From the NCBI GenBank assembly GCA_963422735.1, contig OY730476.1, positions 4,736,001-4,800,000 of the forward strand: a stretch of 64,000 nucleotides of DNA, written 5' to 3'. The notes beneath the pieces are model-generated. The model was not told the DNA's origin. It searched no databases and saw only the letters and a list, made by a program, of their open reading frames with translations. Source of the DNA: Candidatus Latescibacterota bacterium. GTDB taxonomy: Bacteria; Latescibacterota; UBA2968; UBA8231. Positions 32,362-58,586 of this stretch are shown here, piece by piece (the first letter of the stretch is position 1; each line of letters begins with the position of its first letter). The position numbers and the translations under genes were made by a program.

Positions 32362-32362
32362 A

Positions 32363-33284
32363 GTGGACCGGCAGGTTTTTGCCTACGAGGCGCTCGCCGC
32401 CCTGCTGCTGTGGGGATGCGGACGAGAGCCTGAATCCGCGAGCGGCAGTGTGCGGTTTCGCGGGGGGCTTACTCTTCGTGTTGGCTTGGCTCATAAGCAC
32501 CGGTCTCGATGTGTATGTAGCCGTCCTGCTGGTCGTTGGTGCCTTAGTTGTGTTTATCGGCCCCGCGCGCATAACCTGCGAGGCGGGTCTGCCTAGTATC
32601 CAGACGCCGATGGTACCCCAGGCTTTTATGATCCGTGGCTTTGGCCCCCAAGTGCTGGGCCTGCAGAATATGACCGGCTTGGGGTTGAGCACGGTGTGGT
32701 TAGGGGATACTGCGGCCAATATGATGAATTCAGTGATGCACAGCTTGCGCCTGAGCTCCGGCCAGGAGCACCATCTGCGCCACCTGCCTTGGGCGCTGCT
32801 TCTCGCCCTAGTGGTTGCGCTGGCCGGTTCGATTTGGTACACCATGAGCTTGGCCTATACCCACGGCGGCATCAATCTGCACGGTTGGTACTTTCGCGGC
32901 GTTGTGCGCTGGCCCTTCAATCACATGGCCTTGCTGGCCAACGCGCCCGAAGCGAGCTTTGCGCCCCGGCTGACCTTTATTTCCCTAGGAGCTGGCGTCA
33001 TGGGCGCACTGCTCTACCTGCGCCAGCGCTTTTTGGCTTGGCCCCTGCACCCCATCGGCTTCCCAGTGTCCAACACGCACCCGATCATCACCTTCGGCTG
33101 GTCGTCCATCCTGATAGCTTGGTTGTGCAAGGCGGCAATTCTGCGCTATGGTGGGGTACGGCTCTACCAGGCGATGAGCCCCTTCTTTTTGGGCCTAGCG
33201 CTGGGCGAGTTTTCCGCTTCTGCACGCTGGGTCTTTATCGACGGAGCATTCGGGGTAGAGGGCAATATGATTTTTGTATTCTGA
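32363..33284 (+). pseudogene. 5'-truncated DUF6785/DUF6784 paralog
   Basis: Matches only the C-terminal half of 7774..9672 (RI..EAG, WPLHPIG, PFFLGL); the GTG 32363 frame does not join the conserved frame. Confidence 0.6.
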
Positions 33285-33316
33285 GGTTTCAGCAGGGGCG
33301 CGAAAAGGAAATCCAA

Positions 33317-33796
33317 ATGCGATACTTGCGCTCGCTCAAATTGCTCTTGATCGTCGCGACGGTCGGCGCGGTGCTAGCTCTTTTTGAACAGCAGCGCACG
33401 ACCGAGTACAGGCACCTTTTGGAACGTACGCACGCGCGGGGGCAGCCGCAGCTCAAAGGCACGTCTTTGCAGGAGTTGGCACAGGTGCTGCTGGAGTTGT
33501 ATCCAGAGGGTGCGGAAGCCAATCTACTGATGGGCACGGCCCTAGCCGAGGAGGGGCGGTTGGAGGAAGCCCGGGCACATCTAGAGAAGGCCATGGAAGT
33601 GAACCCGCGCAACTTGCAGCTACTCTTTTTGTACGCGCGGCTCTTGCTAGATATGGGAGAAGATGTGGAGAAAGTGCAAGAGGTAGTAGAAGAGTTGAGC
33701 CGGTACTTTCCGCGGTCGCGGGAGAAGGTAGAGCAGTACTTTGCAGAGGCTTCAAAGGGGAAGATGCGGTTTGGCGGGGATGATCTTTATCGTTGA
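33317..33796 (+). CDS. Membrane-anchored TPR protein
   Basis: RBS AAGGA; N-terminal TM segment; EANLLMG..LA..GRLEEA..HLEKA...NP repeat. Confidence 0.8.
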   Translation: MRYLRSLKLLLIVATVGAVLALFEQQRTTEYRHLLERTHARGQPQLKGTSLQELAQVLLELYPEGAEANLLMGTALAEEGRLEEARAHLEKAMEVNPRNLQLLFLYARLLLDMGEDVEKVQEVVEELSRYFPRSREKVEQYFAEASKGKMRFGGDDLYR

Positions 33797-35454: not shown

Positions 35455-35741
35455 AAAGGCCTCCTAGTGGAAATTTTATCTATTCCAATAAATATATTAG
35501 TGCCGTGTAATTTTACTAAGTGCTAATTATGTTACTGACGTTGTGCAGTTTGCCGCACAATGCGTGGTTTCGCCTCGCCTCCCCCTCCCGGCGGAAGCAG
35601 GCTTCACCGCGCCACCCGTTTTCACGGGCGCAGGCTTTAGGCGCGACATCCACCGGGGGGCCACTGGTCGGAACCGTCCGCGACAAAGCACTGCGTAATG
35701 TCAGTTATAATATTGTGGACAATAAGCAATTCTGTATCAAA

Positions 35742-38700: not shown

Positions 38701-38828
38701 TGTTGGCCGGCGAGAAGGCCCGTGCAGTGGCGGCGTTTGCCCGAGCGGTCGAAGCCGACCCCGAACACCGCAAGGCGCGGCAGATGCTCGCCGAACTACG
38801 TCGGCGCGAGGCCCAAGATGAGCGCTGA
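35742..38828 (+). CDS. CRTAC1/ASPIC-UnbV lipoprotein fused to a C-terminal TPR array
   Basis: Lipobox VCGC; FG-GAP repeats; FGLG..WPSG; about 10 TPR repeats. Start 35742 or 35769. Confidence 0.88.
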   Translation: MMFIPSRLSMCIVALVCGCAASDSPPAPAVRFVDATAAAGIDFVHTSGRSGRKYGVETIGSGAAFFDYNRDGWMDLYVVNGADLPGYVSAVPPQNALYRNDRGHFAEVGESLGVADAGYGMGASVGDYDNDGDADLFAANFGRNRLYRNEGSAMAWAFADVTAAAGIGADERWSTGSSFVDCDLDGDLDLYVANYLHYEFERGELSAGGTLRWPRRHLAPTEYRGQRNALWRNDGDRFVDATAAAGLLTREGRELGAVFFDYDLDGDPDLFQGNDATPNFLWRNDGGRFAEVGLVAGVAYNAGGKPEGTMGVDVADGDGDGRLDLAMTNFQWESNTLYHNAGGGMFADESLAAGLAATSLDKLAFGINFLDADNDGDPDLYVANGHIDEDIDRFDPQAAYGQSDQLYLNDGQGRFADASAAAGVAAPTRDLVGRGSAVADYDNDGDPDIFLVNTGQRALLWRNDTQAGHYLALALEGRTSNRDGYGARVVVRVAGRTLVAEKRSAASYLSQNDARMFFGLGSSEKAEEVEIGWPSGVRQVLTGVRAGQVLRVVEPDASAPQEAAGAALAQATPQGRDAEDLEQFWRQAPLVLPTKTRAALPPTAPLSELRAASQAQPEIADVHIELADALVRERTYDEAEAAYRRALQLDAGASQAYVGLGRLYADRGALRQAVGALRQAIALDSTLAEPHYALGNIHLRQRRLAAAVPLYERAIALSPRYLQAYFNLAGLHARQTDYGPAIAVLRQGLAALPEEVELMLQLARIYFAQAQYEDAIAQLSSVVQAQPERAEARELMAQIWMARAAADSARAALQQGLEYAPDSAALLGRLGIVLLQEGADAEAIPLLQRALAADPDRTEVYYHLGQALLRRGEAMRGRKLLDYFHSLQQEHQKLLAHKTALVLNPNDADAYYKLGAVYARIGRYEAASQAYQAALAVAPGHLDARNNLGNIYLRRRALGLAIAAYQEVLRRDPHYARAHYNLGNAYLLAGEKARAVAAFARAVEADPEHRKARQMLAELRRREAQDER

Positions 38829-45831: not shown

Positions 45832-47198
45832 GGGTGCTGCTAATCTGCCTCGTCCTGTGCGCTTGCATCGAGGAAAGCCCGCGAGAAAAAGTGCGCCCCG
45901 GCGCGGCCATGGACGCTGAAGTGCTCTTTACACGCGGCGCCGCGCTCGCCTCCCAAGGCCGCCACATCGAGGCCATTGACGCCTACCAACAGGCGGCCGC
46001 GCTCGCGCCGAGGTCCGCCAAAATCCACTACAACCTCGGCAACGCCTACGTACGCCAGCTCGATTACCCGCGCGCGATTGCGTTCTATCAGCGCGTATTG
46101 GTGCTGGATTCGACGCACGTATCAGCACGGCACAACCTCGCGGCGATGTACGTCAAACAGCTCAACTACGCTCAAGCCATTGACGAACACCGCCGGGTCC
46201 TCTCGTTAGACCCGGGCCATCTGACGACCTACTACGACCTCGGCTACATCTACTTCTTGCGCGGCGAGTACGGCGAGGTGGAAACGCTGCTGCAAGCGGG
46301 TTTGGACCGCGACTCGACCCATGCCTCTTTCTATCGGCTCTTAGGTCGGACGCGCCTGAAGGAACTCGACTTTGAGCGGGCCGCGGCGGCCTTGACGCGC
46401 GCCGTCGCGCTGGACAGCACGTACGCGGCCGCGTACGTCGATCTGGCGCAGGTGGAACTCAAGCGGCGCACGTACGCGGCCGCCGAACGAGCCGCCCGCC
46501 GCGCCGTCGCGCTCGACCCCCTGTCTAAGGAGGCACACTTCGCGCTGGCCAATGCCCTCAAGCGGCTCGGCCACCGCGAGGAGAGCACTGAGGTGCTAGC
46601 GCAGTTCCGCACCCTTGACCAACAACTCGACAAAATCGACGACCAACTGCGGATGCTGGGCAATGCGCCCGACGACCACGAGGCGCGGGCGCAACTGGGT
46701 CTGCTGTACACCGAGCAAGGCCGCTTGGCCGAAGCGACCCAAGCGTATAGGCTGGCCGTGCGCCTCGCACCGGACAGCCTGCGCTATCGCAACAATCTAG
46801 GCAACATCTACCTGCGCTTGGGCCAATTCGCCGAGGCCGTCGCCGAGTATCAGGCCGCGCTGACCTTGGATCCAAAATACGCCAAAGCCCACTATAATTT
46901 GGGCCAGGCGTACATGCGCTTACAGCACTTTGACGAGGCCGTGGCGAGCCTTGCCGAAGCGCGCCGCTTAGCGCCGGAAGACGCGGAGACCCATTACTTT
47001 TTGGGGCTGCTACACGCGCGCGCCGGCGACTACGCCAAGGCCGCCGAGATGCTGACTGTTGCGGTGGCAGTCCGACCGGACTGGCTCGACGCACGGCAGA
47101 AGTTAGCCGTGGCGTACTTGAAGTCCGGCAAGATAGAAGAGAGCAAGCGGGAGCTAGCGGCGATCCGGCAAATGAAAGAGAGCAGGCAGCATGAGTAA
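45828..47198 (+). CDS. TPR-repeat lipoprotein
   Basis: ATGA overlap; lipobox LCAC; repeated HYNLG/NNLG TPR motifs. Confidence 0.9.
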   Translation: MRVLLICLVLCACIEESPREKVRPGAAMDAEVLFTRGAALASQGRHIEAIDAYQQAAALAPRSAKIHYNLGNAYVRQLDYPRAIAFYQRVLVLDSTHVSARHNLAAMYVKQLNYAQAIDEHRRVLSLDPGHLTTYYDLGYIYFLRGEYGEVETLLQAGLDRDSTHASFYRLLGRTRLKELDFERAAAALTRAVALDSTYAAAYVDLAQVELKRRTYAAAERAARRAVALDPLSKEAHFALANALKRLGHREESTEVLAQFRTLDQQLDKIDDQLRMLGNAPDDHEARAQLGLLYTEQGRLAEATQAYRLAVRLAPDSLRYRNNLGNIYLRLGQFAEAVAEYQAALTLDPKYAKAHYNLGQAYMRLQHFDEAVASLAEARRLAPEDAETHYFLGLLHARAGDYAKAAEMLTVAVAVRPDWLDARQKLAVAYLKSGKIEESKRELAAIRQMKESRQHE

Positions 47199-48762
47199 GC
47201 GTTGGATGGGAACGGCACTTTGCGCGGCGCTGGTCGGCCTAAGCGGCTGCGCCGAGGACGGCCCGGCCGTGGCCGCTGAAGATGCCGTCTTGGTGGAGGT
47301 GGGCCAAACGGCGGTTCGGGTGGTGGATTACCGCCAGTACATCGCGCGGGTGGCACCGGAATTGCGGGCGGATTACGGAACCGAACAGCTCTTGGAGGCC
47401 ATCGTCGAGCAAACGCTGCTCGTGCAGGAAGCCGAGCGGCGGGGGTTGGGCGAGAGTGCAGAATTTTTGCAATGGCAGGCGCAGGCGCAGGCGCGGCTGG
47501 TACAGCAGGCTTTGTACGAGCGCGCCGGAATCGTCCAGCCCGAGGTCTCCGAAGAGGAGCTGCGAGCCTATTTCCAGCGCAGCCCATACAACCGCCGCGT
47601 GCGCTTTAGCCTGCTGATGGTGCGCGATCAAGAGCAGCTACCAGGGATTTTGGCCGCGCTCGCCGAGGGCGCGGACTTTGAGGAGCTGTCAATGCGGCAC
47701 TCGCAGGACTCGCGGATTCTAGAGCGCCGCGCCGACATGGGCTATCACCGCTGGGGCGATACCATGGCCTCGCACGCCGCCCTGACCGAAAGGGCCTTCT
47801 CCATGCAGGTCGGGGAGATCGCCGAGCCGATGCAGGTGGCCGACGGGTACTTTCTTATCAAGCTCACGGACATGCACCCGGTTAGCTTCGAGCAGGAGCG
47901 GGAGACCATTCGGCGCTTGGTGCTGCGAGAAAAGCTCGGGCGGCAGCTTTTGGTTTACTACGATACCCTGCATGTGCGCTATAATGTGCGCTACGAGCCG
48001 GATGGGTTGGCGGTGGGCCGGTCGCCAGAGGCCGTTGTGGCTGCGTACGATGGCGGGGTGCTAACGGTCGCCCAGGCCCGCGAACTGCTAAAGGGCCAGG
48101 GCGCGGGCGAAAAGGTGCTGCGGCGCGAGCTCGGGCGGCGCGTGTTGGTCTCGCTCGAAACCGCGCGGCTTGCGCTCGCCGACGATCCGGACCTGCAGCG
48201 CGAACTAGAGCGACTGCGGCAGATGGAGCTTGCGCGGCGCTTGCAGGACGCGCTACAAGCGCAAGTGCCACCGCCCAATCCCAACGGCCTGAGCTTGTTT
48301 TACGAGGAGCACAAGCTCCGTTATACCGCACCGGCCGAGGTGGAGGTGCGCCGGCTGCTCGCCGGCGACGAGGCCGAGGGCACTGCCATCGTCGAGCGGA
48401 TGCGCGCCGGTCGCGATACGACCGCGCTGGTCGATCGCTTCGTCAGCGTGATTTACGGCCGCGGCGCGCTGGAGGGCGACAATCCGGTCAGCCGCGCCCT
48501 GCTCGCCGACGAAGGGGCTTTCCACGGCCCCTTTGCCACGGATAATGGCTATATTGTCTTACAGGTGTTGCGCCGCCGTCCAGCTCGGCTGCCGCCACTG
48601 GACGAAATCCGCGAGCAGGTGGAGGCGGATTGGGCGACAGCGCAGCTCCAAGCTGCGGTCAAAGAGTTGGCCGCGTCTCTGCGTCAGCGCCGCGCCAACG
48701 AAATCCGCTTCAGCCCAGACGCTGTGGCGTTAGCCCTTTTGGCTACTTCTCATGGCGAGTAA
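47191..48762 (+). CDS. Parvulin-type PPIase lipoprotein
   Basis: Lipobox LSGC; GADFEELS..HSQD; GEIAEP....GYFLIK. Confidence 0.85.
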   Translation: MSKRWMGTALCAALVGLSGCAEDGPAVAAEDAVLVEVGQTAVRVVDYRQYIARVAPELRADYGTEQLLEAIVEQTLLVQEAERRGLGESAEFLQWQAQAQARLVQQALYERAGIVQPEVSEEELRAYFQRSPYNRRVRFSLLMVRDQEQLPGILAALAEGADFEELSMRHSQDSRILERRADMGYHRWGDTMASHAALTERAFSMQVGEIAEPMQVADGYFLIKLTDMHPVSFEQERETIRRLVLREKLGRQLLVYYDTLHVRYNVRYEPDGLAVGRSPEAVVAAYDGGVLTVAQARELLKGQGAGEKVLRRELGRRVLVSLETARLALADDPDLQRELERLRQMELARRLQDALQAQVPPPNPNGLSLFYEEHKLRYTAPAEVEVRRLLAGDEAEGTAIVERMRAGRDTTALVDRFVSVIYGRGALEGDNPVSRALLADEGAFHGPFATDNGYIVLQVLRRRPARLPPLDEIREQVEADWATAQLQAAVKELAASLRQRRANEIRFSPDAVALALLATSHGE

Positions 48763-49804
48763 TTCGCTCGTTCTGCAACCTGCCTATATCGTTGGTCGCC
48801 AGCAGGACTATGTGTGGTTTGTCGGCCTGCCCTTTGCTGCGGTCTGCTTTGCCCTCGTGTCGGGGCACTACCTGCCGGGGGCCGCGCTGGCGGCGATCGC
48901 TTTGTGGGTGACCATTCCGCACCACTTCGTCACTTGGCTGCGCGTCTATGGCTCGCCGGCGGAGTTTGCCCGCTTCAAGGAGCGCTTCATCCTCGGGCCG
49001 GTGGTGTTGATCGCCTTTGCCTACGGCCTGATCCAGTGGGCGCCGTTGAGCTTGGTGCTGATCGTGACGTTGTGGGATCACCAGCACAGCTTGATGCAGC
49101 AATACGGCTTTGCGCGCGTGTACGATTTTAAGGCCAAGGCCGGCTCGCCCGCCACCGCCAAGTTCGACTTGGCCTTCAATTGGATTTTCTTCGGCAACAT
49201 GCTCGTAGTGTCGCCGCTTTTTTCTACGGTCTGGGTGCGCATGTTGCACGAGTGGCACCTGCCCATCGGCGCGGAGGCGGTAAAGACAATACACCTCGTC
49301 TCGTGGACCATTGCCATTGCCTACGGCCTGATCTACTTGGGGCACGTTGCCTATTGTGCCCGGCGCGGCTTGACGCTCAACCCCCTCAAATACGCCTTTC
49401 TGCTGTCGAGCTATTTCCTGTGGTACTTCACTAGTTTTACCACGGCCTATCTGCTCGTCTTTGCAGTGGCGCATCGAATCATGCACGGGATCCAGTACAT
49501 TGTCATGGTGTATTTCTACAACCGCCACAAGGTCGAGCGCACGGGCGGCGACTCGGCCCTCCTCCGCTACGTGTCGGGCAAGGGGGGCGTCAAGTTCTTT
49601 CTTCTGCTGTGTGCAGCCTACGCCATTGTCTTTCACGCGCTGAGCGAGGGCTTGGTGCGCGACTTTGGCTTCGGCTTGGTTGGCTTCAACACTAATTTTG
49701 ACCTCTTCAGCTATTCGCTGCTCAGTTCCTTTGCCCTGATACATTATTACTACGACGCATTTATATGGAAAGTGCGGAAAAAGGATGTGCAGGAGGGGCT
49801 GTAG
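48752..49804 (+). CDS. His-rich multipass membrane protein of unknown function
   Basis: About 8-9 TM segments; PHHF, HQH..Q, HRIMHGIQY and HYYYD motifs. Confidence 0.7.
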   Translation: MASNSLVLQPAYIVGRQQDYVWFVGLPFAAVCFALVSGHYLPGAALAAIALWVTIPHHFVTWLRVYGSPAEFARFKERFILGPVVLIAFAYGLIQWAPLSLVLIVTLWDHQHSLMQQYGFARVYDFKAKAGSPATAKFDLAFNWIFFGNMLVVSPLFSTVWVRMLHEWHLPIGAEAVKTIHLVSWTIAIAYGLIYLGHVAYCARRGLTLNPLKYAFLLSSYFLWYFTSFTTAYLLVFAVAHRIMHGIQYIVMVYFYNRHKVERTGGDSALLRYVSGKGGVKFFLLLCAAYAIVFHALSEGLVRDFGFGLVGFNTNFDLFSYSLLSSFALIHYYYDAFIWKVRKKDVQEGL

Positions 49805-49937
49805 TAGTGATTAGTGGTTAGTGGTCAGTGGCCAGTCCCCGCACCACCAGAAGTGTGGAGACTGGCCACTGACCACTGGCCACTGACCACTGGCCACTGA
49901 CCACTGATCACTGATCACTAACCACTGGCCACTAACT
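49805..49937. repeat. Heptamer-built inverted repeat element
   Basis: TGATTAG TGGTTAG TGGTCAG TGGCCAG, core, then 11 ACTGRCC/ACTAACC-type units ending at the RBS AGGAG. Confidence 0.9.
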
Positions 49938-49950
49938 AGGAGATTGAGCT

Positions 49951-51798
49951 ATGCTCGAAGTCGTCCTCGCCATCGCCGCTGTCGCCGTCGCCGTCGCCGC
50001 GGCCATGGTCCGCCAAGCCGCGGCCGATGTGTGCTACGACCTCTCCGACGGGGAGCGCCATCCGCACAAGTGGGGCTACACGGATACCCGCTTTGAGTTC
50101 GACGGGCCTAAGACTGTGCGGGTTACTGGCAGTCGCTATCCGCTGGCCGGCTTCACCATGCCGCACTTCATCCCCTTTGTCGAGGAGATGCTTGAGGTTC
50201 CGATTGACCCCAACGAGATGGCCGTCGAAAAAGAGGTCCAAGTGGTGCCGCCCTCGCGGGCAGACGCAAGTCTCGTCGCCGCTTGGCAGGACGCGCTCGG
50301 TGCCGAGCGCGTTTCGCTCGACGACGAGGAACGCCTAATCCACAGCCACGGCCAGCTCAGCGTCGATGAGGTCTATCGCCTGCTCTACGGCGATGCCTTG
50401 GAGCGCGTGGTCGATCTGGTGCTTTATCCAGAGAGCGAAGACCACGTGTGCGCCATCGTGCGCCTCGCCTCCGAGCACAGTGTTTGCCTTGTGCCCTACG
50501 GCGGCGGCACCAACGTCAGCGGCGCGCTGGCCCTGCCCGCCGACGATGGCCGCGTCTTTGCCTCGGTCGATATGCGGCGCATGAACCGGATCGTCGATCT
50601 CGACGCGGAAAACCTCCAAGCTTGCATCGAAGCGGGGATTTCGGGCAAGGAGCTAGAGCGGGAACTCGCCGCCCGGGGCTTTACCGTCGGCCACGATCCC
50701 GACAGCATTGAGCTTTCGACCTTGGGCGGCTGGATCGCCACCAACGCCAGTGGCATGAAGAAAAACCGCTACGGCAATATCGAAGACATCGTCCTCGAAG
50801 CGACCTTGGTGACGCCGACCGGCGCAGTGGAGACCCTGCACACCACGCCGCGCAACTCGACCGGCATCCAGCCGCGCGGGCTGCTCTTTGGCTCGGAGGG
50901 CAACCTCGGCATCATTACCAAGGCTGTGCTCAAGATCCATCCCCAACCGGAAGTACGCGAATATGGTTCGCTGGTATTCAAGTCCTTTGCCCAAGGCGTG
51001 GAGTACTTGCAGGCATTGCGGCAGACTGGGACTTTGCCGGCGAGTATCCGCTTGGTCAACAACCAAGAATTCCGCTTTGGACAGGCCCTCAAGGCCGCAC
51101 CCTCTTCTGTAAAGCGCCTCAAGGAAAAGGTGCAGAAGCTCGCCTTATTCAAGCTGTTGGGATTTGACCCGTTAAAAATGGCGGCGTGTACGATCGCTAT
51201 GGAAGGGACTCGCGCCGAGGTCGCCTACCAGAAGCGGACGATTATCAAGCTGGCCAAGGCCCACGGCGGCAAGAGCGCCGGTGCCACCAACGGCCGACGC
51301 GGCTACACGCTGACCTTTGGGATCGCCTATATCCGCGACTTTTTGAACCAGTTCGATTTCTTGGGCGAGACCTTCGAGACTTCCGTGCCTTGGAGCCGCA
51401 TCCACGACGTGACGCAGGCCGTGCAAGCGGAACTGATCGCCCAGTGTAGTACGCGCGGCGTTGCCGGGCGGCCCTACCTGTCGTACCGGGTGACGCAGAC
51501 GTACCACACGGGGGTGTGCATCTATTTTACGATGGGGTTTTCCGGGCGGGGATTGGCGCGGCCCATTGAGGTCTATCACGACATCGAGCACAGGCTGCGG
51601 CAGACGATCTTGGACAGCGGCGGCTCGCTGTCCCACCACCACGGGATAGGCAAAATCCGCCAGAGCTTCGTCCAGCACATCCAGAGCGACAACAGCATCG
51701 AGGTCCTGCGAAAGACCAAAGAAGCACTGGATCCGCAGAATATCTTTGGCATTCAGAATGGAATTTTTGGGAGTGCGTGCCGGAAGCCTGAGGAATAA
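49951..51798 (+). CDS. Alkyl-dihydroxyacetonephosphate synthase (AGPS)-like FAD enzyme
   Basis: KWGY.DT, HSHGQ, PYGGGT.V, GH.PDS.E.STLGGW, SGMKKNRYGNIED, GETFETS.PW, RVTQTY..G.CIYF and SLSHHHGIGK motifs. Confidence 0.88.
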   Translation: MLEVVLAIAAVAVAVAAAMVRQAAADVCYDLSDGERHPHKWGYTDTRFEFDGPKTVRVTGSRYPLAGFTMPHFIPFVEEMLEVPIDPNEMAVEKEVQVVPPSRADASLVAAWQDALGAERVSLDDEERLIHSHGQLSVDEVYRLLYGDALERVVDLVLYPESEDHVCAIVRLASEHSVCLVPYGGGTNVSGALALPADDGRVFASVDMRRMNRIVDLDAENLQACIEAGISGKELERELAARGFTVGHDPDSIELSTLGGWIATNASGMKKNRYGNIEDIVLEATLVTPTGAVETLHTTPRNSTGIQPRGLLFGSEGNLGIITKAVLKIHPQPEVREYGSLVFKSFAQGVEYLQALRQTGTLPASIRLVNNQEFRFGQALKAAPSSVKRLKEKVQKLALFKLLGFDPLKMAACTIAMEGTRAEVAYQKRTIIKLAKAHGGKSAGATNGRRGYTLTFGIAYIRDFLNQFDFLGETFETSVPWSRIHDVTQAVQAELIAQCSTRGVAGRPYLSYRVTQTYHTGVCIYFTMGFSGRGLARPIEVYHDIEHRLRQTILDSGGSLSHHHGIGKIRQSFVQHIQSDNSIEVLRKTKEALDPQNIFGIQNGIFGSACRKPEE

Positions 51799-52591
51799 GA
51801 CAGTCGTTATCACCGGTGCTTCTGCGGGCTTGGGCGCGACGCTGGCGCGGGAATGCGCCCAGCAGGGTGCGCGGCTGGTTATCTTGGCGCGGAATGCCGA
51901 GCGGCTGGAGGCTGTCGCCCGCGAGTGCGAGCAGTTGGGGAGCGAGGTGCTGACCGTCGTCGGGGATGTCGCCCTAGCCGAGGGTGGCAAGCGGCTGGTG
52001 GAGGCCGCGATTGAGGGCTTTGGGCGCATAGACTATTTGGTCGCCAACGCCGGCGTCAGCATGTGGACCGAGTTTGCCGCGATCGAGGATGTGGCCCTGT
52101 TCCGTACGCTGATGGAGGTGAATTACTTGGGGGCCGTGTATTGCGTGCATCCCGCGCTGCCGCATCTAAAGAAAAGCAAGGGCCTATTCGTGGCCATTTC
52201 GTCCATTCAGGGACAGGTGGGGGTGCCGTTGCACACTGGGTACTCGGCGTCCAAACACGCGCTACAGGGGTTTTGCGATGCGCTGCGAATGGAGGTGGCC
52301 TTGAGCGGGGTGGGGGTGATGACCGTGCTCTTGCACTGGCTCGAGGGGACGGAGCTGCGGCAACGCGCACTGGGGAGGGACGGAAAGGCGTTGGGCGACG
52401 CATCGCGCAAACACCGGGCGGGAGCGGTGAGCTCGGCGGCGGCCGCGCAGGCGATTGTGCGCGGGATGCAGAAGCGTCAGCCACAGCTCTACGTGCCTAG
52501 GCGACTCAGATTGCTGGCTATAGCCCACGCCCTGTGGCCGGCGCTGGCCGAGCGAGTCGTCAAGGGGAAGGTGGCGCGGGAGGAAGAGTAG
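51758..52591 (+). CDS. SDR oxidoreductase (DHRS7/DHRS7B-like)
   Basis: TGASAGLG, NAG, YSASKHALQGF.DALR.E; overlaps the AGPS 3' end. Confidence 0.85.
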   Translation: MEFLGVRAGSLRNKTVVITGASAGLGATLARECAQQGARLVILARNAERLEAVARECEQLGSEVLTVVGDVALAEGGKRLVEAAIEGFGRIDYLVANAGVSMWTEFAAIEDVALFRTLMEVNYLGAVYCVHPALPHLKKSKGLFVAISSIQGQVGVPLHTGYSASKHALQGFCDALRMEVALSGVGVMTVLLHWLEGTELRQRALGRDGKALGDASRKHRAGAVSSAAAAQAIVRGMQKRQPQLYVPRRLRLLAIAHALWPALAERVVKGKVAREEE

Positions 52592-52595: not shown

Positions 52596-55349
52596 CTACG
52601 ATCGCGTGATGCGGAGCCGTTCGGTCAGTTCGAGATCGTCCAGAATCTGCTGCAATTCCGTCTCCATGTTCTGGGCAAATTGCGAACGGACGCTCACGGT
52701 ACATTCTACGCCGACGCTCAGGTCTTCCCCGTCGCGCAGCTTGGGCAGGATCTTGGTGCCAAGCCGGTTCCACACTTCTGGCGGGACGGTGCCAGCAAGC
52801 CGCAGCGTTGTCTTTTGATTGTCCGGGCTCGGGCCCGATTCAGGCGCTGGCTGAGGTGCTGGCTCTGGGCGCGGCGCGGGTTCCGGGGGCGTCTGCGGCG
52901 AATTTTCAGACGCGGCTTTAAGTTCTTTAGCTTTGGCCTTGGTCAGCAAGAATACATCCGCTTCAAACGCCACTTCCTCGGCTTGGACCGACTCTTCATA
53001 CCACAGCCGATCGTAGTTGCCGTCAGGGTTTGCGCCAGAGGCTAGGCCGAATTCTCCCTTGGACACAAACTCGGTGATCTGGCGACGAAGGGTCATGTCG
53101 GGGTCGATCAACCGCGTTAACGAGCCGTCCAGGAAGCTTTGCCGCAAGCCCAAGAGCGGCCAAGTGCCCGTTTCCTTGAATGCGGGGGGCCAGTGCCGGT
53201 CGATGTAGCCGGTGCCAACGCGCTCGTTGAGCAGCGCCTCGGACTTGAGGGCCGCAATGATCCGCCCGCAGAGCGTCTCGCTGGCGCTCGCGTGACCTGC
53301 CCCGAGGTCGATGATCTTGAGGCCGTTATGACTATGGGAATCCGAAAGCGCCACGAATCGATAGCCGGCCCAGACTTCGTCTTTAGCGGCCTCCTCCATT
53401 TCCTTGACCTTGGCCCGAACTTCGGCGCGGTCGGCATAGTCGAACTCGGCGCCCAGTACCCCCTCTTCTACTTCGTGCGCCACCCGCTGCCAGGCAAGCC
53501 ATAGCTCGACCCGCCCCCGCATCTCCCATCCCGGCTTCTTCGCGCACCAGATCAAGGCGCCCGAGTAAAGCCGCGGCGACTTGCCCCGTTGTCTCGTCCA
53601 GTCGGCGATGCGATCGACGGCCCTGCCTTCCCGCCAGTCGATGGCGGGATCGAAGACGATCAACGCAAGACGTGGAGAATCCGGTATGGCAGTGCTATCA
53701 GCCGGAAAGAAAACGATGGGAAGGCTGGCACCACGCCGAAACTCGCCTTCAACAAGCTTGCGGATTGCTGGTTTGGTCTCGCCTTCCTCGTCCAGCGATG
53801 CACGCCGATCGCTGACGACCTTCTTCAACGTGGCCTGATGGTGGATGCGATAGCCGTCGGTGCCGACCCGGCGGATAAAGAATCCCGATCCTTCGAGTGC
53901 CGTCGCCGCATTGTCGATGGTCGTGGTCTCGACTTGGGGTTCGCCGAGCGCGAAACGCAGTTCGGGCAGATGGGCCACCTTGTCCACCTGGCCCCCGGAG
54001 GACTCGAACAGGATGGTCGTACCCGTGCGGCGGTGGATGTCGCGCAATGCCCCCCGGGTGTCGGCATCCAGAGGTCTGGCACGGGCCGCCGTCCCCACGA
54101 GGTCGGCGTCAATGGCGACGTCGAGCCGCTGCTCGCCCAACTGACCCAGGACCACGGCACGGAACTCCGGCACATCCAGCGGCGCCGATCCCAAGGTGAT
54201 CAGCGGCTCGGTTCGCGCCTTTTGGAAATGCTCGCGCGCCGCCCAGGAAACCCACTGCGCCAGCATCGCGAGTGCCCCACGGGTCTGTTGAAACTGGGCG
54301 AGCGAGCGCCACTTGCGCTGGAACACCGACAGGGTCGCCGGATGGAACGGATAGCACGCCTCGAACCGACCCCGCAGAAACTCCCTTGCCTTGGCCTCCG
54401 TCGTCGCGGTATCGACCGCCAGCCACTCGGCCGGCAGACGGGCCGTGCGCTCGAAACACCAGTCCGCGTAGGTTTTGGCCACTCTTTTACGCATACGCTC
54501 GTTGCCCAAGTCTTCGAACAGACGCCGGCGCACGACTTCGCTGATCTCGGATTCGTCATTGGCGATCAGGTCGCGGGCAACGCGGCGCACCACTTTGGTG
54601 ATCCGCTCCTGCCATTGCTGATCCCAGTCCGTCATTTCGACTTGGCTGCGCGGCAGGCTGATGACCGCTGCTGCTTGCGTGGTGCCGGTGACGGCCACCG
54701 TTAGATTCTGAATAAAGGCGTGAAAGCTCTCGGCCATGCTCCGGTGGCGGTTGACGAAGTTCAGCACTTCATCGAACAACAGCAGCACGGGTGCGTCCGC
54801 AGCGGCGAATACGTTGGCCAGCGTCTCGGTTCCCGGCGGCGTAGCTTTCGCAGCCGCACCGAGCACGGCCACGCCCTTGTCACCCGCCAGTTGACGGGCT
54901 AGGTCGATCCACGGCGTCTCTCGCCCCTGGGCCGGGTCCCAGGCATTGCCGACGAACACGCCGACGCGAGCAGGAGGCGCTTGTGCAATCCCCGCCTCGT
55001 TGAGGAGGTTTGCCACCCCGTGGAACTGGGTGGCCTCCGCGCCGGCATGGGCGATATGGTACAGCGAAGCCAGCGTATGCGTCTTGCCGCCGCCGAACTG
55101 GGTGACGAGCGTCAGAACCGGCGCGGTGTTTCCAGTTTGTCCGGCCAGCCGCCGGAGCACCATTCCCGCATGCTCCTTCAAGGCACGGGTGAAGCAGGTG
55201 CGCGAAAAGAACTGGGCCGGGTCGCAATAGTCCGCCGGTGCTGTACCGGCCACCACCTGCTCTAGGGCGATGGCAAACTCGTCCGGGCTGAACGAGCGGC
55301 CTTCGCGTACTTCCTTGCGGAGCGTGACAACTTTGTACCAAGGGTCCAT
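52596..55349 (-). CDS. DUF499 AAA+ ATPase
   Basis: PW..V...R..V; TQFGGGKTH Walker A; LLLFDE Walker B; YPFHP; FQQTRG. Confidence 0.9.
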   Translation of the reverse strand: MDPWYKVVTLRKEVREGRSFSPDEFAIALEQVVAGTAPADYCDPAQFFSRTCFTRALKEHAGMVLRRLAGQTGNTAPVLTLVTQFGGGKTHTLASLYHIAHAGAEATQFHGVANLLNEAGIAQAPPARVGVFVGNAWDPAQGRETPWIDLARQLAGDKGVAVLGAAAKATPPGTETLANVFAAADAPVLLLFDEVLNFVNRHRSMAESFHAFIQNLTVAVTGTTQAAAVISLPRSQVEMTDWDQQWQERITKVVRRVARDLIANDESEISEVVRRRLFEDLGNERMRKRVAKTYADWCFERTARLPAEWLAVDTATTEAKAREFLRGRFEACYPFHPATLSVFQRKWRSLAQFQQTRGALAMLAQWVSWAAREHFQKARTEPLITLGSAPLDVPEFRAVVLGQLGEQRLDVAIDADLVGTAARARPLDADTRGALRDIHRRTGTTILFESSGGQVDKVAHLPELRFALGEPQVETTTIDNAATALEGSGFFIRRVGTDGYRIHHQATLKKVVSDRRASLDEEGETKPAIRKLVEGEFRRGASLPIVFFPADSTAIPDSPRLALIVFDPAIDWREGRAVDRIADWTRQRGKSPRLYSGALIWCAKKPGWEMRGRVELWLAWQRVAHEVEEGVLGAEFDYADRAEVRAKVKEMEEAAKDEVWAGYRFVALSDSHSHNGLKIIDLGAGHASASETLCGRIIAALKSEALLNERVGTGYIDRHWPPAFKETGTWPLLGLRQSFLDGSLTRLIDPDMTLRRQITEFVSKGEFGLASGANPDGNYDRLWYEESVQAEEVAFEADVFLLTKAKAKELKAASENSPQTPPEPAPRPEPAPQPAPESGPSPDNQKTTLRLAGTVPPEVWNRLGTKILPKLRDGEDLSVGVECTVSVRSQFAQNMETELQQILDDLELTERLRITRS

Positions 55350-55399
55350 CTATTGCTACCTCTCAGAATCGCAGTTTTCCCGTGCGTTGTTGCGCTCGG

Positions 55400-55580
55400 C
55401 GGTCGGCAAGAAGCAACGCACACACGGATGTCTTCAGGCTCCGGATCAGAGACGCCCGGAGCGTGGTCTCATGTCTAGGACATGCTCTACGGCAATGTGC
55501 ATATCGCGAATGACGGGTTTGCCGCCGAAGACATCCGGGCGAGCGGTGATGCGTTCGAGCAGTGCTTCTTCAGTAATCAT
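55400..55580 (-). pseudogene. DUF433 antitoxin remnant
   Basis: RBS GGAG; MITEEALLERITARPDVFGGKPVIRDMHIAVEHVL then an early stop at 55446; a C-terminal EPEDIR fragment follows. Confidence 0.75.
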
Positions 55581-55628
55581 GGTTGCTCCTCCAACGATTT
55601 CGGGTTCCGAGCGACATCGTAGAATGGT

Positions 55629-58586
55629 TCACTTCGGCATGACCAGCAGCATGGCGTCGAGTAGGCGTTTTTCGTTGCAGCCTTGAGGATAGAGAGCCGA
55701 CAGCGCGTTGGCAAGGCGGAGAAAGTCCGGGCCGCGGTCCTGCTCGGCGTCGATCAGGGTGCGCAGCGCGCCAGAGTGGCCATTGGCTTGCAGCAGCATG
55801 GCGGCGTGTACACGATCCAGAGTCGTGGCCTTGATTGCTTGCAGCTCTACCTCCCCGTCGGGAACGAGCCTTCTGACTCTGCGCGGATTCCCGACCTTTG
55901 GCGCGGTTTCCAATTCCGGGAAGAGGGTTGTTTGTATGTTGGCACCGCTCTCGACCCAGTCAGCGGCGGCGCTGACGCCGTCTTCGCCGAAGAGTTCCTT
56001 GGCGCGTTCGGACACTGGTAGGAGGCGTACGACGCCTTTTGCTTGGCCGATGACGCGGCCGGTCCAGGTGCTGAGGTCGATGCCCATGGGCTGGGCGAAA
56101 CGGCGCACCACATCGAAAGGCAGGCTGAATCCCTTGGCCGCGGCCTTGGCGGATCCCTCTTCGCCTTCATCGTCTTGGTCGTCGTTGTCGGCGGGTGCTT
56201 CCGTGCTTTGCAGCGTCCAGAGGAACAGCGCGGTCAAGCGGGCGTCTTCTTCGAGTGCGCCGGCCAAACCGTTGCGCGCCGTTGCTTCGGCGCTGCCGAG
56301 CACCTGTTCGAGGGCCGCACGGCCCACCACTTCCCACACCCTCTCCAGATATTCGGGCAGCCTGACCTCGCGGCCATCGACCGTTTCGACGGCGCGATAG
56401 CGGCTGTAGATTTCCAGGGCCGGGCCGATGCAGGCGAATACCAGATCGGCGCCGCGGATGCCTTCGCCTTGCAGGCGCTCCATCCAGTCGCCGACACGAT
56501 TAGGAAGTTCGCGCAGGACATCTGCCCAGTCGCCAACCGGAGCATCTTCGGGGCGAGGGCGGCAGATAAGGTGGACGCTGGTGGCAAGGGCGGCGGAATC
56601 GCGGGCGCGGAGGCGGGTCTCGCTCTCGGTCGCAATCGGCCAGGAGCCGGTGATGGTCCAGCCGCCGCGGATCAGGCCGGAAAGCAGCGCTTCCCAACCC
56701 TCGGTGGTCTTGTGGGCGAAGACGACGGAGCCGACTCCGTCTTCGGCCAGGATGCGGCGGCCCTCGGCAAAGGCTTTCGCCATCGTCTCTTCGAACCATG
56801 CGTCGTCCTTGGGACAGCCATCGCATTGTTTGGTTTCGTCTTGCACCGCTTCGCGAATCTTGGGAGAGAGCGGGTTGGCTGTGTCGAACGGGTCGCGCAG
56901 TAGGGGATGGCCGGGCAGCGTGCGCTTGAGCCAGACGAGAAAGAAGTCGGAGAGGTCCGCGTAGGGAATCGCGTCGTAGTAAGGAGGGTCGGTGAACCAG
57001 ACGCCGGCGGATTGGTCGGGAAGGGGGTGGTTCGTGGCGTCGGCGGGTTGGATCTGGCCTGTCGAAAGTAATGGGAACCCCTCTACGACTTGTTCCACAT
57101 TCGCCAATGCACCGTCGAAATGTTCCGACCTGCCGCCGGAAATTATGGTTTCTGGAAAAGTCCATGTAATTGGTAAGGCATGCATCCCAAAGGCCGGTGC
57201 AACTGATGAGTCTGGCCTTAGCCGTGCGTTGCCGTTACAAGCCCTAGCAAAGCGGTCTAATGCACATGCCAACAGCGCACGTACTGCATCTGAACTGCAC
57301 ACGTTCCCTATTATGTTAGCTATAGCCACCAGCGCCGCCTTCTGCCGCGCGGTGAACAGGTCGCCCCACTGGAGCATGCCGTAGCGTTGCACGCTGAACG
57401 CCCTGCCGGCACCCGAACCGCCGCCGGCAGGCGTCGGCTCATCCGGTATCGGACACATGCCTTGCTTCCCGTCGCGCTCCCATTCCTCCAGGATATGCGC
57501 CACCCGCTCCTGTGCCTTCCGCACCGCTGTATAGTCCGCATCCGTCGGCAGCCGATAGTGCCGCCCTTTCTGCCCCGGCTTGAGCGTCACCACCGCGGCC
57601 ATCCGCGCCCCGCCCGTTCGCCGTCCCTCCGCGTCGAACACCACATCCGCGCCACCTCGCTCCGCCGCAAGCTGCGCCCGCACCCGCTCCGGCGGCAACA
57701 CCGTCTCGCAACAAAGGCAGGTCGCCTTCGCCCGCGTCACGGTGCCGGTGCGCACTTCGCGGTCCGTTTTCGGCTCGAAAACCTCGAACTCCACACGCGG
57801 GGCCGCGCCTTCGGGCCGCTCGACCCGGTGCCGCAGCGCCCGCTTGCGCTTGGGCTTTTTGCACAGCCAGAACGAACGCATAAGCGGGATTTCCGCGCCG
57901 CAGTTCGGCGCTTCGCAGCGCACAGAGCGCGCCCACAAATAGGCAATCGGGGTCGCGCCGTCCGGGTCCTTCGGATAGAGGTCGGCCAACTCCCGCTCGG
58001 CTTTCCGCTTGATCTCGGCCCCGGCCTTGCGCAGTTCATCCGCCAGCTTCGGCCCGTGCCGCGGAATGTCCTCCAGCATCACCTTGAGGATCAGGCAGGC
58101 CACCGGGTTCAGATCGCTGGCGAACGCCTCGCAGCCCAGCCGCAACGCCTCCAGCGGGATGGATCCGCCGCCGGCGAACGGGTCCACGACCACTGGGGTT
58201 TCCTCGCCGTGCGCGGCCTTCACTAATGCATGGCTTACATTGAGATAAGTACGGTTCGCGGCAAGGTCCCAGTTGGCGAAGTCGGCGATGAACTTGAGCA
58301 GGCCACGACGCATTTCCTGATCCGTTTCGCTTGGCCCGCAGCCAACTTGCGGAAGCAGATCACGCGCCCGCCGCTTGAACGCATCGGGGCAGTGCGGGTC
58401 GCACGGGTCCGGCAACAGCAACGCCAGCAGTACCGCCCGCGACGACGCCAAGGGCCGCCGCGCCCACCACAGATGTAGCGTCGAGGGATGGCCGTGGCGA
58501 ATGGACTTCTCGCGCACCGCATGTTTGGAGACCGCGGCGATGGGGAAATCCACTTCGGCGAGGCGTTTGCATTCTTTGGGGATCAT
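55629..58586 (-). CDS. DUF1156 adenine DNA methyltransferase
   Basis: LHLWWARRPL; DPFAGGGSIP (motif I); TDPPYY (motif IV); Cys-rich Zn insert; FAHKT..GW. Confidence 0.92.
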   Translation of the reverse strand: MIPKECKRLAEVDFPIAAVSKHAVREKSIRHGHPSTLHLWWARRPLASSRAVLLALLLPDPCDPHCPDAFKRRARDLLPQVGCGPSETDQEMRRGLLKFIADFANWDLAANRTYLNVSHALVKAAHGEETPVVVDPFAGGGSIPLEALRLGCEAFASDLNPVACLILKVMLEDIPRHGPKLADELRKAGAEIKRKAERELADLYPKDPDGATPIAYLWARSVRCEAPNCGAEIPLMRSFWLCKKPKRKRALRHRVERPEGAAPRVEFEVFEPKTDREVRTGTVTRAKATCLCCETVLPPERVRAQLAAERGGADVVFDAEGRRTGGARMAAVVTLKPGQKGRHYRLPTDADYTAVRKAQERVAHILEEWERDGKQGMCPIPDEPTPAGGGSGAGRAFSVQRYGMLQWGDLFTARQKAALVAIANIIGNVCSSDAVRALLACALDRFARACNGNARLRPDSSVAPAFGMHALPITWTFPETIISGGRSEHFDGALANVEQVVEGFPLLSTGQIQPADATNHPLPDQSAGVWFTDPPYYDAIPYADLSDFFLVWLKRTLPGHPLLRDPFDTANPLSPKIREAVQDETKQCDGCPKDDAWFEETMAKAFAEGRRILAEDGVGSVVFAHKTTEGWEALLSGLIRGGWTITGSWPIATESETRLRARDSAALATSVHLICRPRPEDAPVGDWADVLRELPNRVGDWMERLQGEGIRGADLVFACIGPALEIYSRYRAVETVDGREVRLPEYLERVWEVVGRAALEQVLGSAEATARNGLAGALEEDARLTALFLWTLQSTEAPADNDDQDDEGEEGSAKAAAKGFSLPFDVVRRFAQPMGIDLSTWTGRVIGQAKGVVRLLPVSERAKELFGEDGVSAAADWVESGANIQTTLFPELETAPKVGNPRRVRRLVPDGEVELQAIKATTLDRVHAAMLLQANGHSGALRTLIDAEQDRGPDFLRLANALSALYPQGCNEKRLLDAMLLVMPK

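What the first reader, a model, noticed from the sequence alone, without database searches (positions are those of the whole stretch)
48752..52591. Eukaryote-like ether-lipid module: AGPS overlapping a DHRS7B-like reductase
Seen: an AGPS-type FAD enzyme (MKKNRYGNIED, ETFETS.PW, HHH triad, hydrophobic N-terminus) overlapped by an SDR with YSASKHALQGF.DALR.E, preceded by a His-rich multipass protein. Known: in peroxisomes AGPS makes alkyl-DHAP and DHRS7B/PexRAP (yeast Ayr1) reduces it, so these are consecutive steps. Inference: a bacterial DHAP-route alkyl-ether lipid pathway, distinct from the PlsAR and myxobacterial ElbD routes. The His-rich protein could be a tailoring metalloenzyme, but its linkage is weaker because a repeat element separates it. 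No acyltransferase or fatty acyl reductase is in the window.
Basis: partly seen in the sequence, partly recalled or inferred. Interest (0 to 1): 0.75.

Follow-up and report, generated by a model that had tools for sequence, protein, structure and literature searches.

The report
Bacterial AGPS–reductase ether-lipid gene pair
Two overlapping genes in this Latescibacterota genome encode the ether-bond enzyme known from animal peroxisomes and, very probably, the reductase for the next step, in a bacterial class that seems to lack the usual genes for starting membrane-lipid synthesis.

Summary
ORF 49951-51798 is a true AGPS relative: guinea-pig AGPS E=5e-145 against 6e-28 for the next flavoenzyme. 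The SDR (probable start 51758) overlaps its end.

In a 151-genome phylum sample, AGPS was found in 109 genomes and this SDR type in 104. All 104 are AGPS-positive, none of the 42 AGPS-negative genomes has it, and in 95 of 104 it lies just downstream.

The His-rich membrane protein is an unrelated neighbour. It travels with a PPIase and TPR genes, and only 1 of 80 loci centred on its relatives holds AGPS.

FAR and acyltransferase functions lie elsewhere: a FAR-ACS-acyltransferase fusion and an unnamed HX4(D/E) acyltransferase, "X". PlsX, PlsY and GpsA were found in almost none of the 115 sampled genomes of this class (PlsX once), but in most other families, and X has the complementary distribution.

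The enzyme kind is known from the Myxococcus MXAN_1674-1676 operon, and AGPS counts in Latescibacterota MAGs are in print. This scan reached the same reading before on other DNA (e1-6805785, e1-3114939). Enzyme functions are inferred, not shown.

The parts
49951..51798 (+). AGPS orthologue (alkyl-DHAP synthase type FAD enzyme), 615 aa, with a hydrophobic N-terminal segment
   Evidence: Pfam FAD_binding_4 + FAD-oxidase_C. PDB 4bby E=5e-145 over residues 39-603, 2uuu 1.3e-84, next flavoenzyme 5.9e-28. HHH, Tyr and Arg positions invariant in 18 homologues.
51758..52591 (+). Classical SDR, candidate acyl/alkyl-DHAP reductase (alternative TTG start at 51746). Overlaps the AGPS 3' end by 41 nt (53 nt from the TTG).
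   Evidence: adh_short 2e-48. NCBIfam PRK06181 286 bits against a cut-off of 215. Downstream of AGPS in 70 of 74 loci. 104 of 109 AGPS+ genomes and 0 of 42 AGPS- genomes have it.
49805..49934 (.). Intergenic heptamer tandem/inverted repeat forming a long hairpin; a strain-variable element, not a gene
   Evidence: 71 arrays of 4 or more units genome-wide. Contigs of about 92%-alike relatives skip 49804-49934.
48752..49804 (+). His/Asp-rich multi-pass membrane protein of an unnamed family. It is a neighbour and not part of the ether-lipid pair.
   Evidence: No Pfam or NCBIfam hit. 1 of 80 loci centred on its relatives holds AGPS. Found in 40 of 151 genomes, only in family f1. Long relatives are fused to TPR repeats.
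47191..48762 (+). PpiC-type PPIase; its end overlaps the His-rich gene's start by 11 nt. This is the unit the His-rich gene belongs to.
   Evidence: Pfam Rotamase_2. FG-GAP / TPR / PPIase / His-rich synteny is kept in loci that lack AGPS.

Best explanation
ORF 49951-51798 is a membrane-tethered alkyl-DHAP synthase. It swaps the acyl chain of 1-acyl-DHAP for a fatty alcohol, making the ether bond. The overlapping SDR is the acyl/alkyl-DHAP reductase that turns the 2-keto product into 1-alkyl- (or 1-acyl-) glycerol-3-phosphate, using NAD(P)H. That product can then be acylated by a PlsC-like enzyme. The substrates come from genes elsewhere in the genome: fatty alcohol and acyl-CoA from a FAR-acyl-CoA synthetase-acyltransferase fusion, and acyl-DHAP from that fusion's acyltransferase domain or from 'X', an unnamed ~650-aa HX4(D/E) acyltransferase. 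Shown: homology, conserved active-site positions, gene order and phyletic patterns. Inferred: every catalytic activity, the cofactor and the lipid product. The His-rich membrane protein upstream belongs to a different unit (PPIase/TPR).
For: AGPS identity:
- 487.6 bits to guinea-pig AGPS across the whole length, against 101 bits for the best non-AGPS flavoenzyme.
- The HHH, Tyr and Arg positions are invariant in 18 homologues.
- GlcD models score far below their cut-offs.

SDR coupling in AGPS-centred loci (the best 80 of 569 GTDB matches):
- In the 74 loci with at least 900 nt downstream, an SDR homologue lies on the same strand within 300 nt in 59 and within 2 kb in 11 more.
- This holds although the upstream genes differ: the His-rich gene in 23 of 24 close loci and 0 of 52 distant ones; FAR in 0 of 22 and 26 of 42.
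- It also holds in two Poribacteria loci and one Trueperaceae locus.

SDR coupling in the 151-genome phylum sample:
- AGPS was found in 109 genomes and the SDR in 104, as one copy each, all inside the AGPS+ set. None of the 42 AGPS- genomes has it.
- The SDR is adjacent in 95 genomes. It is retained though unlinked in G079, G094 and G007.

Pathway context:
- FAR + Sterile + AMP-binding + Acyltransferase fusion of 1402 aa.
- X sits between FAR and AGPS in 26 or more related loci and is present in this genome. It has an invariant H-x4-(D/E) motif and a PF01553 match of 22.1 bits, 23.7 with neighbours, against a cut-off of 23.
- This genome has no PlsY, PlsX, GpsA or PlsB C-domain match.
- Families f1-f4: PlsY 0 of 114, GpsA 0 of 114, PlsX 1 of 114, X 112 of 114. 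All other families together: PlsY 29 of 36, GpsA 29 of 36, PlsX 33 of 36, X 2 of 36.

Literature:
- In eukaryotes this step is done by SDRs (PMC13256971 abstract; PMC9131029 passages).
Against: - No activity, cofactor or lipid was measured.
- Orthology to DHRS7B/Ayr1 was not tested.
- Solved relatives are generic: clavaldehyde dehydrogenase, 11beta-HSD1, FabG.
- Genus g11 has X in 5 of 5 genomes. It has this SDR type in 0 of 5, and AGPS in 1 of 5, and that one match is the 46%-identity type. It also lacks PlsY and GpsA. So this SDR cannot be the only route to a reduced backbone in the class.
- The SDR beside a divergent AGPS (L177) is only 33% identical, so that position may hold a different SDR lineage.
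- L087 and L093 have AGPS without a neighbouring SDR.
- The M. xanthus operon carries an NAD-dependent epimerase/dehydratase instead of a classical SDR.
- The genomes compared are close kin and mostly MAGs, so the counts are not independent events.
- The acyltransferase assignment of X is weak: Pfam E 0.05 on the protein, hhalign probability 3%, no PDB hit.
- Other sources of glycerol-3-phosphate (GlpK, GlpD-type enzymes) were not searched.
Confidence: 0.7

Rival explanations
1. The SDR serves the pathway at another step. It could reduce fatty aldehyde to the fatty alcohol that AGPS needs, or act on another lipid carbonyl, while alkyl-DHAP is reduced by a different enzyme.
For: SDR substrate range cannot be read from sequence, and the nearest solved relatives act on aldehydes and steroids. 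Genus g11 lacks this SDR yet has X and lacks GpsA and PlsY, so another reductase must exist in the class.
Against: The FAR proteins carry the NAD_binding_4 + Sterile architecture. From recall, that architecture is typical of alcohol-forming reductases, so they need no helper. The SDR tracks AGPS (104 of 109 AGPS+, 0 of 42 AGPS-) rather than FAR, and is translationally coupled to AGPS, not to FAR.
Confidence: 0.15
2. The pair makes only a minor ether-lipid branch. X is a glycerol-3-phosphate acyltransferase fed by an unrecognised G3P source, so the absence of GpsA, PlsX and PlsY says nothing about the SDR.
For: X was not assayed, and its acceptor is unknown. It is more widespread than AGPS (115 against 109 genomes, including g11). 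GlpK/GlpD-type G3P sources were not searched.
Against: X lies between FAR and AGPS in 26 or more loci, in the place where the M. xanthus operon has its GNPAT-type module. GpsA was not found in any of the 115 sampled genomes of the class.
Confidence: 0.2
3. The His-rich membrane protein is a metal-dependent tailoring enzyme of the ether lipid (desaturase or hydroxylase type) working with AGPS.
For: It lies directly upstream on the same strand in 23 of 24 close relatives. It has six conserved His and several Asp/Gln in helices. No CarF/PEDS1 family match was found in the genome.
Against: Only 1 of 80 loci centred on its relatives has AGPS or the SDR, and that locus is 94% identical to the window. 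It was not found in f2 (0 of 30) or f3 (0 of 19), which have AGPS and the SDR, and it is present in g11 (4 of 5), where AGPS was found only in G082, as the 46%-identity type. Its conserved partners are a small TPR protein (57 of 71 loci) and a PPIase, and 35 of 42 long relatives are TPR fusions. It matches no desaturase or hydroxylase Pfam family even at E up to 10.
Confidence: 0.04

Closest known systems
Eukaryotic peroxisomal ether-lipid pathway (FAR1, GNPAT, AGPS, acyl/alkyl-DHAP reductase PexRAP/DHRS7B, yeast Ayr1)
   Same: AGPS is homologous over its full length, with the active-site positions kept. The next enzyme is an SDR. FAR-type and acyltransferase modules are present in the genome.
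   Different: The genes are in a bacterium. AGPS has a hydrophobic N-terminus in place of the N-terminal region of the animal enzyme. The SDR's orthology to DHRS7B/Ayr1 is untested. The likely DHAP acyltransferase (X) is too divergent for Pfam to call with confidence. There is no PEDS1/CarF match, so alkyl rather than alkenyl products are expected.
Myxococcus xanthus MXAN_1674-1676 operon (NAD-dependent epimerase/dehydratase, FAR-GNPAT fusion, AGPS)
   Same: A bacterial AGPS route with a FAR and an acyltransferase. AGPS is genetically implicated in ether lipids there (bioRxiv 10.1101/2025.10.10.681575, introduction read).
   Different: Here AGPS is coupled to a classical SDR, not to an epimerase-type protein. 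FAR and the acyltransferases are unlinked in this genome. Relatives have FAR-X-AGPS-SDR or ACS-FAR-X-AGPS-SDR.
Myxobacterial ElbD
   Same: The 1402-aa protein at C1:3951560-3955768 combines FAR, acyl-CoA synthetase and acyltransferase domains. ElbD-like hits in Latescibacterota MAGs are in print (PMC11868695 passages; the sponge-symbiont preprint, section 15).
   Different: No ACP domain was detected. The domain order is FAR-Sterile-AMP-binding-Acyltransferase. It lies 0.8 Mb from the AGPS pair.

Membership tests
AGPS (alkylglycerone-phosphate synthase, EC 2.5.1.26) | VAO/PCMH-type FAD-binding domain plus FAD-oxidase C-terminal domain | tested here: met
   PF01565 7.9e-40 and PF02913 9e-34
AGPS (alkylglycerone-phosphate synthase, EC 2.5.1.26) | Full-length similarity to solved AGPS, including the N-terminal region, far above other flavoenzymes | tested here: met
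   4bby 5e-145 (query 39-603 to chain 94-656), 2uuu 1.3e-84, next 3pm9 5.9e-28. GlcD models score 173.9 against a cut-off of 567.9.
AGPS (alkylglycerone-phosphate synthase, EC 2.5.1.26) | HHH loop, catalytic Tyr and active-site Arg (their roles are recalled from the AGPS structure literature) | tested here: met
   H562-H564, Y525 and R367 align to the guinea-pig positions. The Tyr is the residue that differs in the variant entry 4bca. All are invariant in 18 homologues.
AGPS (alkylglycerone-phosphate synthase, EC 2.5.1.26) | Forms alkyl-DHAP from acyl-DHAP and fatty alcohol | not testable with these tools
   Needs an enzyme assay
Acyl/alkyl-DHAP reductase (DHRS7B/PexRAP, Ayr1; EC 1.1.1.101) | Classical SDR with a Gly-rich dinucleotide motif and a Ser...YxxxK centre | tested here: met
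   adh_short 2.1e-48. TGASAGLG and YSASK are in the translation and conserved in 21 homologues.
Acyl/alkyl-DHAP reductase (DHRS7B/PexRAP, Ayr1; EC 1.1.1.101) | Orthology to DHRS7B or Ayr1 | not tested
   No DHRS7B or Ayr1 sequence could be obtained. The nearest solved animal SDR is 11beta-HSD1 (about 1e-36 with a family profile). Sources name the homologues only as generic SDRs.
Acyl/alkyl-DHAP reductase (DHRS7B/PexRAP, Ayr1; EC 1.1.1.101) | Functional link to AGPS (consecutive steps) | tested here: met
   Downstream of AGPS in 70 of 74 loci. 104 of 109 AGPS+ and 0 of 42 AGPS- genomes; adjacent in 95 of 104. This is genomic evidence only.
Acyl/alkyl-DHAP reductase (DHRS7B/PexRAP, Ayr1; EC 1.1.1.101) | NADPH-dependent reduction of acyl- or alkyl-DHAP | not testable with these tools
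   Needs an enzyme assay. An Arg follows the second strand (LVILARN), which by a recalled rule suggests NADP(H).
M. xanthus MXAN_1674-1676 type operon | AGPS next to a FAR-GNPAT fusion and an NAD-dependent epimerase/dehydratase | tested here: not met
   The window has AGPS + classical SDR only. The FAR-ACS-AT fusion is at 3.95 Mb and X at 1.75 Mb.
CarF/PEDS1 (plasmanylethanolamine desaturase), considered for the His-rich protein | Match to PF10520 (Lipid_desat) | tested here: not met
   No Pfam family at E up to 10 in 36 family members. The genome-wide PF10520 search was also empty, but its controls rang nowhere.
GPAT/AGPAT acyltransferases (PF01553), considered for protein X | HX4D motif and a family score over the cut-off | tested here: inconclusive
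   H-x4-(D/E) is invariant in 18 sequences, with motif III/IV-like stretches. PF01553 gives E 0.05 on the protein. The genome scan gives 22.1 bits, 23.7 with neighbours, against a cut-off of 23. hhalign probability 3%. Atlas score 0.79.

The most novel reading that the evidence does not exclude
In one class of Latescibacterota (families f1-f4 of the sample), all glycerolipid synthesis starts from DHAP, as in yeast and peroxisomes. An unnamed HX4(D/E) acyltransferase (X) acylates DHAP. The AGPS-linked SDR reduces acyl- and alkyl-DHAP. GpsA, PlsX/PlsY and PlsB have been lost. On this reading the SDR in this window is a core housekeeping enzyme, and ether lipids may be major membrane lipids of the class.
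Probability: 0.45. Interest if true: 0.8.

Novelty: new variant of a known kind. Interest (0 to 1): 0.6.

Why it matters
The first acylation of glycerol-3-phosphate by PlsB or PlsX/PlsY is treated as the committed step of bacterial phospholipid synthesis. A whole bacterial class that lacks these genes and GpsA, and instead carries an AGPS, a dedicated SDR and an unnamed acyltransferase, would be a bacterial counterpart of the eukaryotic acyl-DHAP route.

It would give the first candidate gene for a bacterial acyl/alkyl-DHAP reductase. It would also bear on the debate about the bacterial origin of eukaryotic ether-lipid enzymes, and on who makes the alkyl ether lipids seen in marine and sponge samples.

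My literature searches (listings plus the texts named in this report) found AGPS and ElbD homologue counts for Latescibacterota. They found no description of the AGPS-SDR pair or of the missing PlsX/PlsY/GpsA. Subscription journals are not covered by that library.

Tried and rejected
- **Fold of the His-rich protein.** The AlphaFold model (pLDDT 81, pTM 0.80) gave no Foldseek PDB match at E <= 0.001. VIA-align gave only a generic seven-helix resemblance to microbial rhodopsins (best Z 7.5, rmsd 4.5 Å, 170 aligned), which is below what helical bundles reach by chance.
- **Pfam at E up to 10** on 36 members of the His-rich family found nothing consistent.
- **Protein atlas.** For the SDR it returned only generic SDR clusters. 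For X it returned PF01553 clusters at 0.79, a lead only.
- **X against the PDB** by sequence and by profile: no real hit. hhalign of X against the fusion's acyltransferase domain gave probability 3%.
- **Structure prediction of X** was not possible, because the tool took no new jobs.
- **A tree against named eukaryotic AGPS and DHRS7B** was not built, because no named eukaryotic sequences could be brought in. The preprint read says AGPS carries too little phylogenetic signal.
- **The PF10520 search of the genome** is uninformative, because its controls rang nowhere.
- **RNA evidence.** Contigs from RNA-labelled libraries of three studies, 90% or more alike, cover AGPS and the SDR. One 4567-nt contig spans the His-rich gene, AGPS and most of the SDR. 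Such contigs may hold DNA and do not show a single transcript, so I do not count this as expression evidence.
Full report
**What is there.** The window is C1:4736001-4800000 of a single-contig 4.95-Mb genome (95% complete, 5% contamination). Its nearest relatives are labelled Candidatus Latescibacterota, and a few are labelled Gemmatimonadota. One search gives three + strand ORFs:
- 48752-49804, 350 aa;
- 49951-51798, 615 aa;
- 51746-52591, 281 aa from a TTG.

Close homologues of the third ORF are mostly 277 aa. Its start is therefore probably the ATG at 51758, which overlaps the AGPS stop codon (51798) by 41 nt.

**The flavoenzyme is an AGPS orthologue.**
- It has the FAD_binding_4 and FAD-oxidase_C domains.
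- It matches guinea-pig AGPS at E=5e-145 (487.6 bits, query 39-603 on chain 94-656) and Dictyostelium AGPS at 1.3e-84. The best other flavoenzyme scores 5.9e-28.
- GlcD and related NCBIfam models score far below their cut-offs (173.9 against 567.9).
- The HHH triplet, the Tyr that differs in the variant entry 4bca, and the Arg of ASIRL all align. All are invariant in 18 homologues. That these residues are catalytic is recalled, not tested.

**The SDR is tied to AGPS.** It is a classical SDR: adh_short 2e-48, and NCBIfam PRK06181 above its cut-off.

I took the best 80 of 569 GTDB matches to an AGPS alignment and looked for neighbours by tblastn.
- Of the 74 loci with at least 900 nt downstream, 59 have an SDR homologue on the same strand within 300 nt, and 11 more have one within 2 kb.
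- Four have none. L038 and L040 have only about 1 kb of flank. L087 and L093 truly lack it.
- The pair persists while everything else changes. The His-rich gene is upstream in 23 of 24 close loci (AGPS at least 76% identical) and in 0 of 52 distant ones. A FAR gene is upstream in 0 of 22 close and 26 of 42 distant loci.
- Two Poribacteria loci and one Trueperaceae locus also have AGPS-SDR.

In a 151-genome sample of the phylum:
- AGPS (E <= 1e-100) was found in 109 genomes.
- This SDR type (E <= 1e-45) was found in 104 genomes, once per genome.
- All 104 are AGPS-positive, and none of the 42 AGPS-negative genomes has it.
- In 78 genomes the SDR is within 300 nt downstream of AGPS, and in 17 it is 300-2500 nt downstream.
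- In 3 genomes it is far away on the same contig (G079, G094, G007), and in 6 it is on another contig.
- These genomes are kin, so the counts are not independent events.

**Is the SDR DHRS7B-like?** I could not test this.
- No DHRS7B or Ayr1 sequence could be obtained.
- Sources call the homologues only 'SDR family oxidoreductase' or 'short-subunit dehydrogenase'.
- With a family profile, the best solved relatives are a yeast hydroxyacyl-CoA dehydrogenase, clavaldehyde dehydrogenase and 11beta-HSD1 (about 1e-36), a little above FabG (about 1e-32).
- That the alkyl-DHAP step is done by SDRs in animals, yeast and Dictyostelium comes from the abstract of PMC13256971 and passages of PMC9131029.

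**The His-rich membrane protein is a neighbour, not a partner.**
- It has no Pfam or NCBIfam family. It has 292 homologues, all unnamed, in Latescibacterota and Pirellulaceae.
- Conserved positions include H57, D109, Q111, H112, H245, H331, D335 and K340.
- Its model has no convincing solved relative.
- Of 80 metagenome loci centred on its relatives, only one (L153, 94% identical to the window) has AGPS or the SDR.
- Latescibacterota-type copies at 65-78% identity keep FG-GAP / TPR / PPIase upstream but have no AGPS.
- In 57 of 71 loci the next gene is a small membrane-anchored TPR-like protein. This genome's copy of that gene is at window 33317-33796.
- A profile search found 1595 relatives, many of 500-820 aa. 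I scanned 42 of the 150 listed, choosing the long ones, and 35 carry C-terminal TPR repeats.
- In the phylum sample the family was found in 40 of 151 genomes, only in family f1 (39 of 63). It was not found in f2 (0 of 30) or f3 (0 of 19), which have AGPS and the SDR. It is present in g11 (4 of 5), where AGPS was found in only one genome, as the 46%-identity type.

**The repeat between the genes.**
- Positions 49805-49934 are tandem heptamers in inverted orientation. They fold at -83.9 kcal/mol, z = -9.35.
- The genome holds 71 arrays of four or more such units.
- Contigs of about 92%-alike relatives join 49803/49804 to 49935, with 16 or 36 other letters in between.
- The repeat is therefore a strain-variable insertion.

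**The rest of the pathway.**
- The strongest FAR match in the genome is a 1402-aa protein with NAD_binding_4, Sterile, AMP-binding and Acyltransferase domains at C1:3951560-3955768. It is followed by Lgt, an old-yellow-enzyme-like protein and another SDR.
- In distant AGPS loci the order is FAR, then a ~650-aa protein 'X', then AGPS, then the SDR. One locus (L177) has ACS-FAR-X-AGPS-SDR.
- X has an invariant H-x4-(D/E) motif and stretches like acyltransferase motifs III and IV.
- PF01553 matches X only marginally: E 0.05 on the protein, and 22.1 bits (23.7 with neighbours) in the genome scan, against a cut-off of 23.
- This genome has X at C1:1748846-1750783.

**The wider pattern.** I tested this.

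In this genome, PlsY, PlsX, GpsA and the PlsB C-terminal domain gave no match, while the controls rang. PF01553 matches only three places: the fusion protein, a 234-aa PlsC-like ORF, and X.

In the phylum sample (the counts per family leave out G000, which has X and none of the other three):

| Gene | f1 | f2 | f3 | f4 | all other families |
|---|---|---|---|---|---|
| PlsY | 0/63 | 0/30 | 0/19 | 0/2 | 29/36 |
| GpsA | 0/63 | 0/30 | 0/19 | 0/2 | 29/36 |
| PlsX | 1/63 | 0/30 | 0/19 | 0/2 | 33/36 |
| X | 61/63 | 30/30 | 19/19 | 2/2 | 2/36 |

- The one PlsX match in f1 is in G126, on its own contig, in a genome with 7% contamination.
- The two X matches outside f1-f4 are in f7 (1 of 1, a genome without PlsY, GpsA or PlsX) and in G020 of f8.
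- X is thus the complement of the classical genes.
- Exceptions: G020 has both sets. G015 (f14) has none of these genes. Genus g11 has X but not this SDR type.

**Reading.** The pair most likely carries out two consecutive steps: ether-bond formation on acyl-DHAP, then reduction of the 2-keto group. In this class the same reductase may also serve ordinary acyl-DHAP, which would make the DHAP route the main entry to membrane lipids. All catalytic statements are inferences.

**What is known.**
- The M. xanthus MXAN_1674-1676 operon is a described bacterial AGPS route (introduction of bioRxiv 10.1101/2025.10.10.681575).
- Agps homologues were reported in 67 of 92 and ElbD homologues in 50 of 92 Latescibacterota MAGs (PMC11868695 passages).
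- Both were also reported in sponge-symbiont MAGs (section 15 of bioRxiv 10.64898/2026.06.23.733905). The supplements of these preprints were not seen and may list neighbouring genes.
- This scan had already reached the same reading on two other Latescibacterota genomes (e1-6805785 and e1-3114939). It had also noted AGPS-SDR-acyltransferase operons in other phyla (e1-5152840 and e1-5211310), which I did not check.

Noticed in passing
window 49805-49934; genome-wide: A family of heptamer tandem repeats (CCACTGA/CCACTGG type), often in inverted pairs that form long hairpins. There are 71 arrays of 4 or more units in the genome, including one just downstream of X and one beside the FAR-ACS-AT gene. 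The element is absent at this site in about 92%-alike relatives.
   Followed up: partly
window 48752-49804; G000:C1:1585528-1586550: An unnamed His/Asp-rich membrane-protein family. It is paired with a small TPR protein in 57 of 71 loci and fused to C-terminal TPR repeats in 35 of 42 long relatives scanned. This genome also has a 29%-identical copy inside a 588-aa ORF. Its function is unknown; the PPIase, TPR and FG-GAP neighbours point to an envelope role.
   Followed up: partly
window 52596-58586 (- strand): DUF499 (917 aa) and DUF1156/methyltransferase-like (985 aa) genes lie directly after the SDR. Close relatives have full-length DUF499 in some loci, fragments in others and none in the rest, as in a variable defence-type island. 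Not checked against PADLOC.
   Followed up: no
window 32253-33796: A DUF6785/DUF6784 membrane protein is followed by this genome's homologue of the small TPR protein that elsewhere follows the His-rich gene. A second PPIase and an FG-GAP/ASPIC-TPR fusion lie next to it (33820-38828).
   Followed up: no
L015 (G000:C1:3942000-3960000): The FAR-ACS-acyltransferase fusion is followed on the same strand by Lgt (prolipoprotein diacylglyceryl transferase), an old-yellow-enzyme-like flavoprotein and a 364-aa SDR with an N-terminal extension.
   Followed up: no
L086 (Trueperaceae MAG) 3169-11156: FAR, X, AGPS and the SDR are followed by a FA_desaturase-family gene. This is the same cluster in a different phylum label, with a possible desaturase.
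   Followed up: no
L176, L178 (G082, G088): AGPS-like genes at 44-46% identity sit in other contexts (glucokinase, DeoC aldolase and PhyH; a sodium:solute symporter) without FAR, X or an SDR. They may be paralogues with another role.
   Followed up: partly
phylum sample, genomes G015, G020, G126 and genus g11: Exceptions to the complementary pattern. G015 has none of X, PlsY, PlsX or GpsA. G020 has both sets. G126 has a lone PlsX on a separate contig, possibly contamination. Genus g11 has X but not this SDR type; one of its five genomes (G082) has the 46%-identity AGPS-like gene.
   Followed up: no
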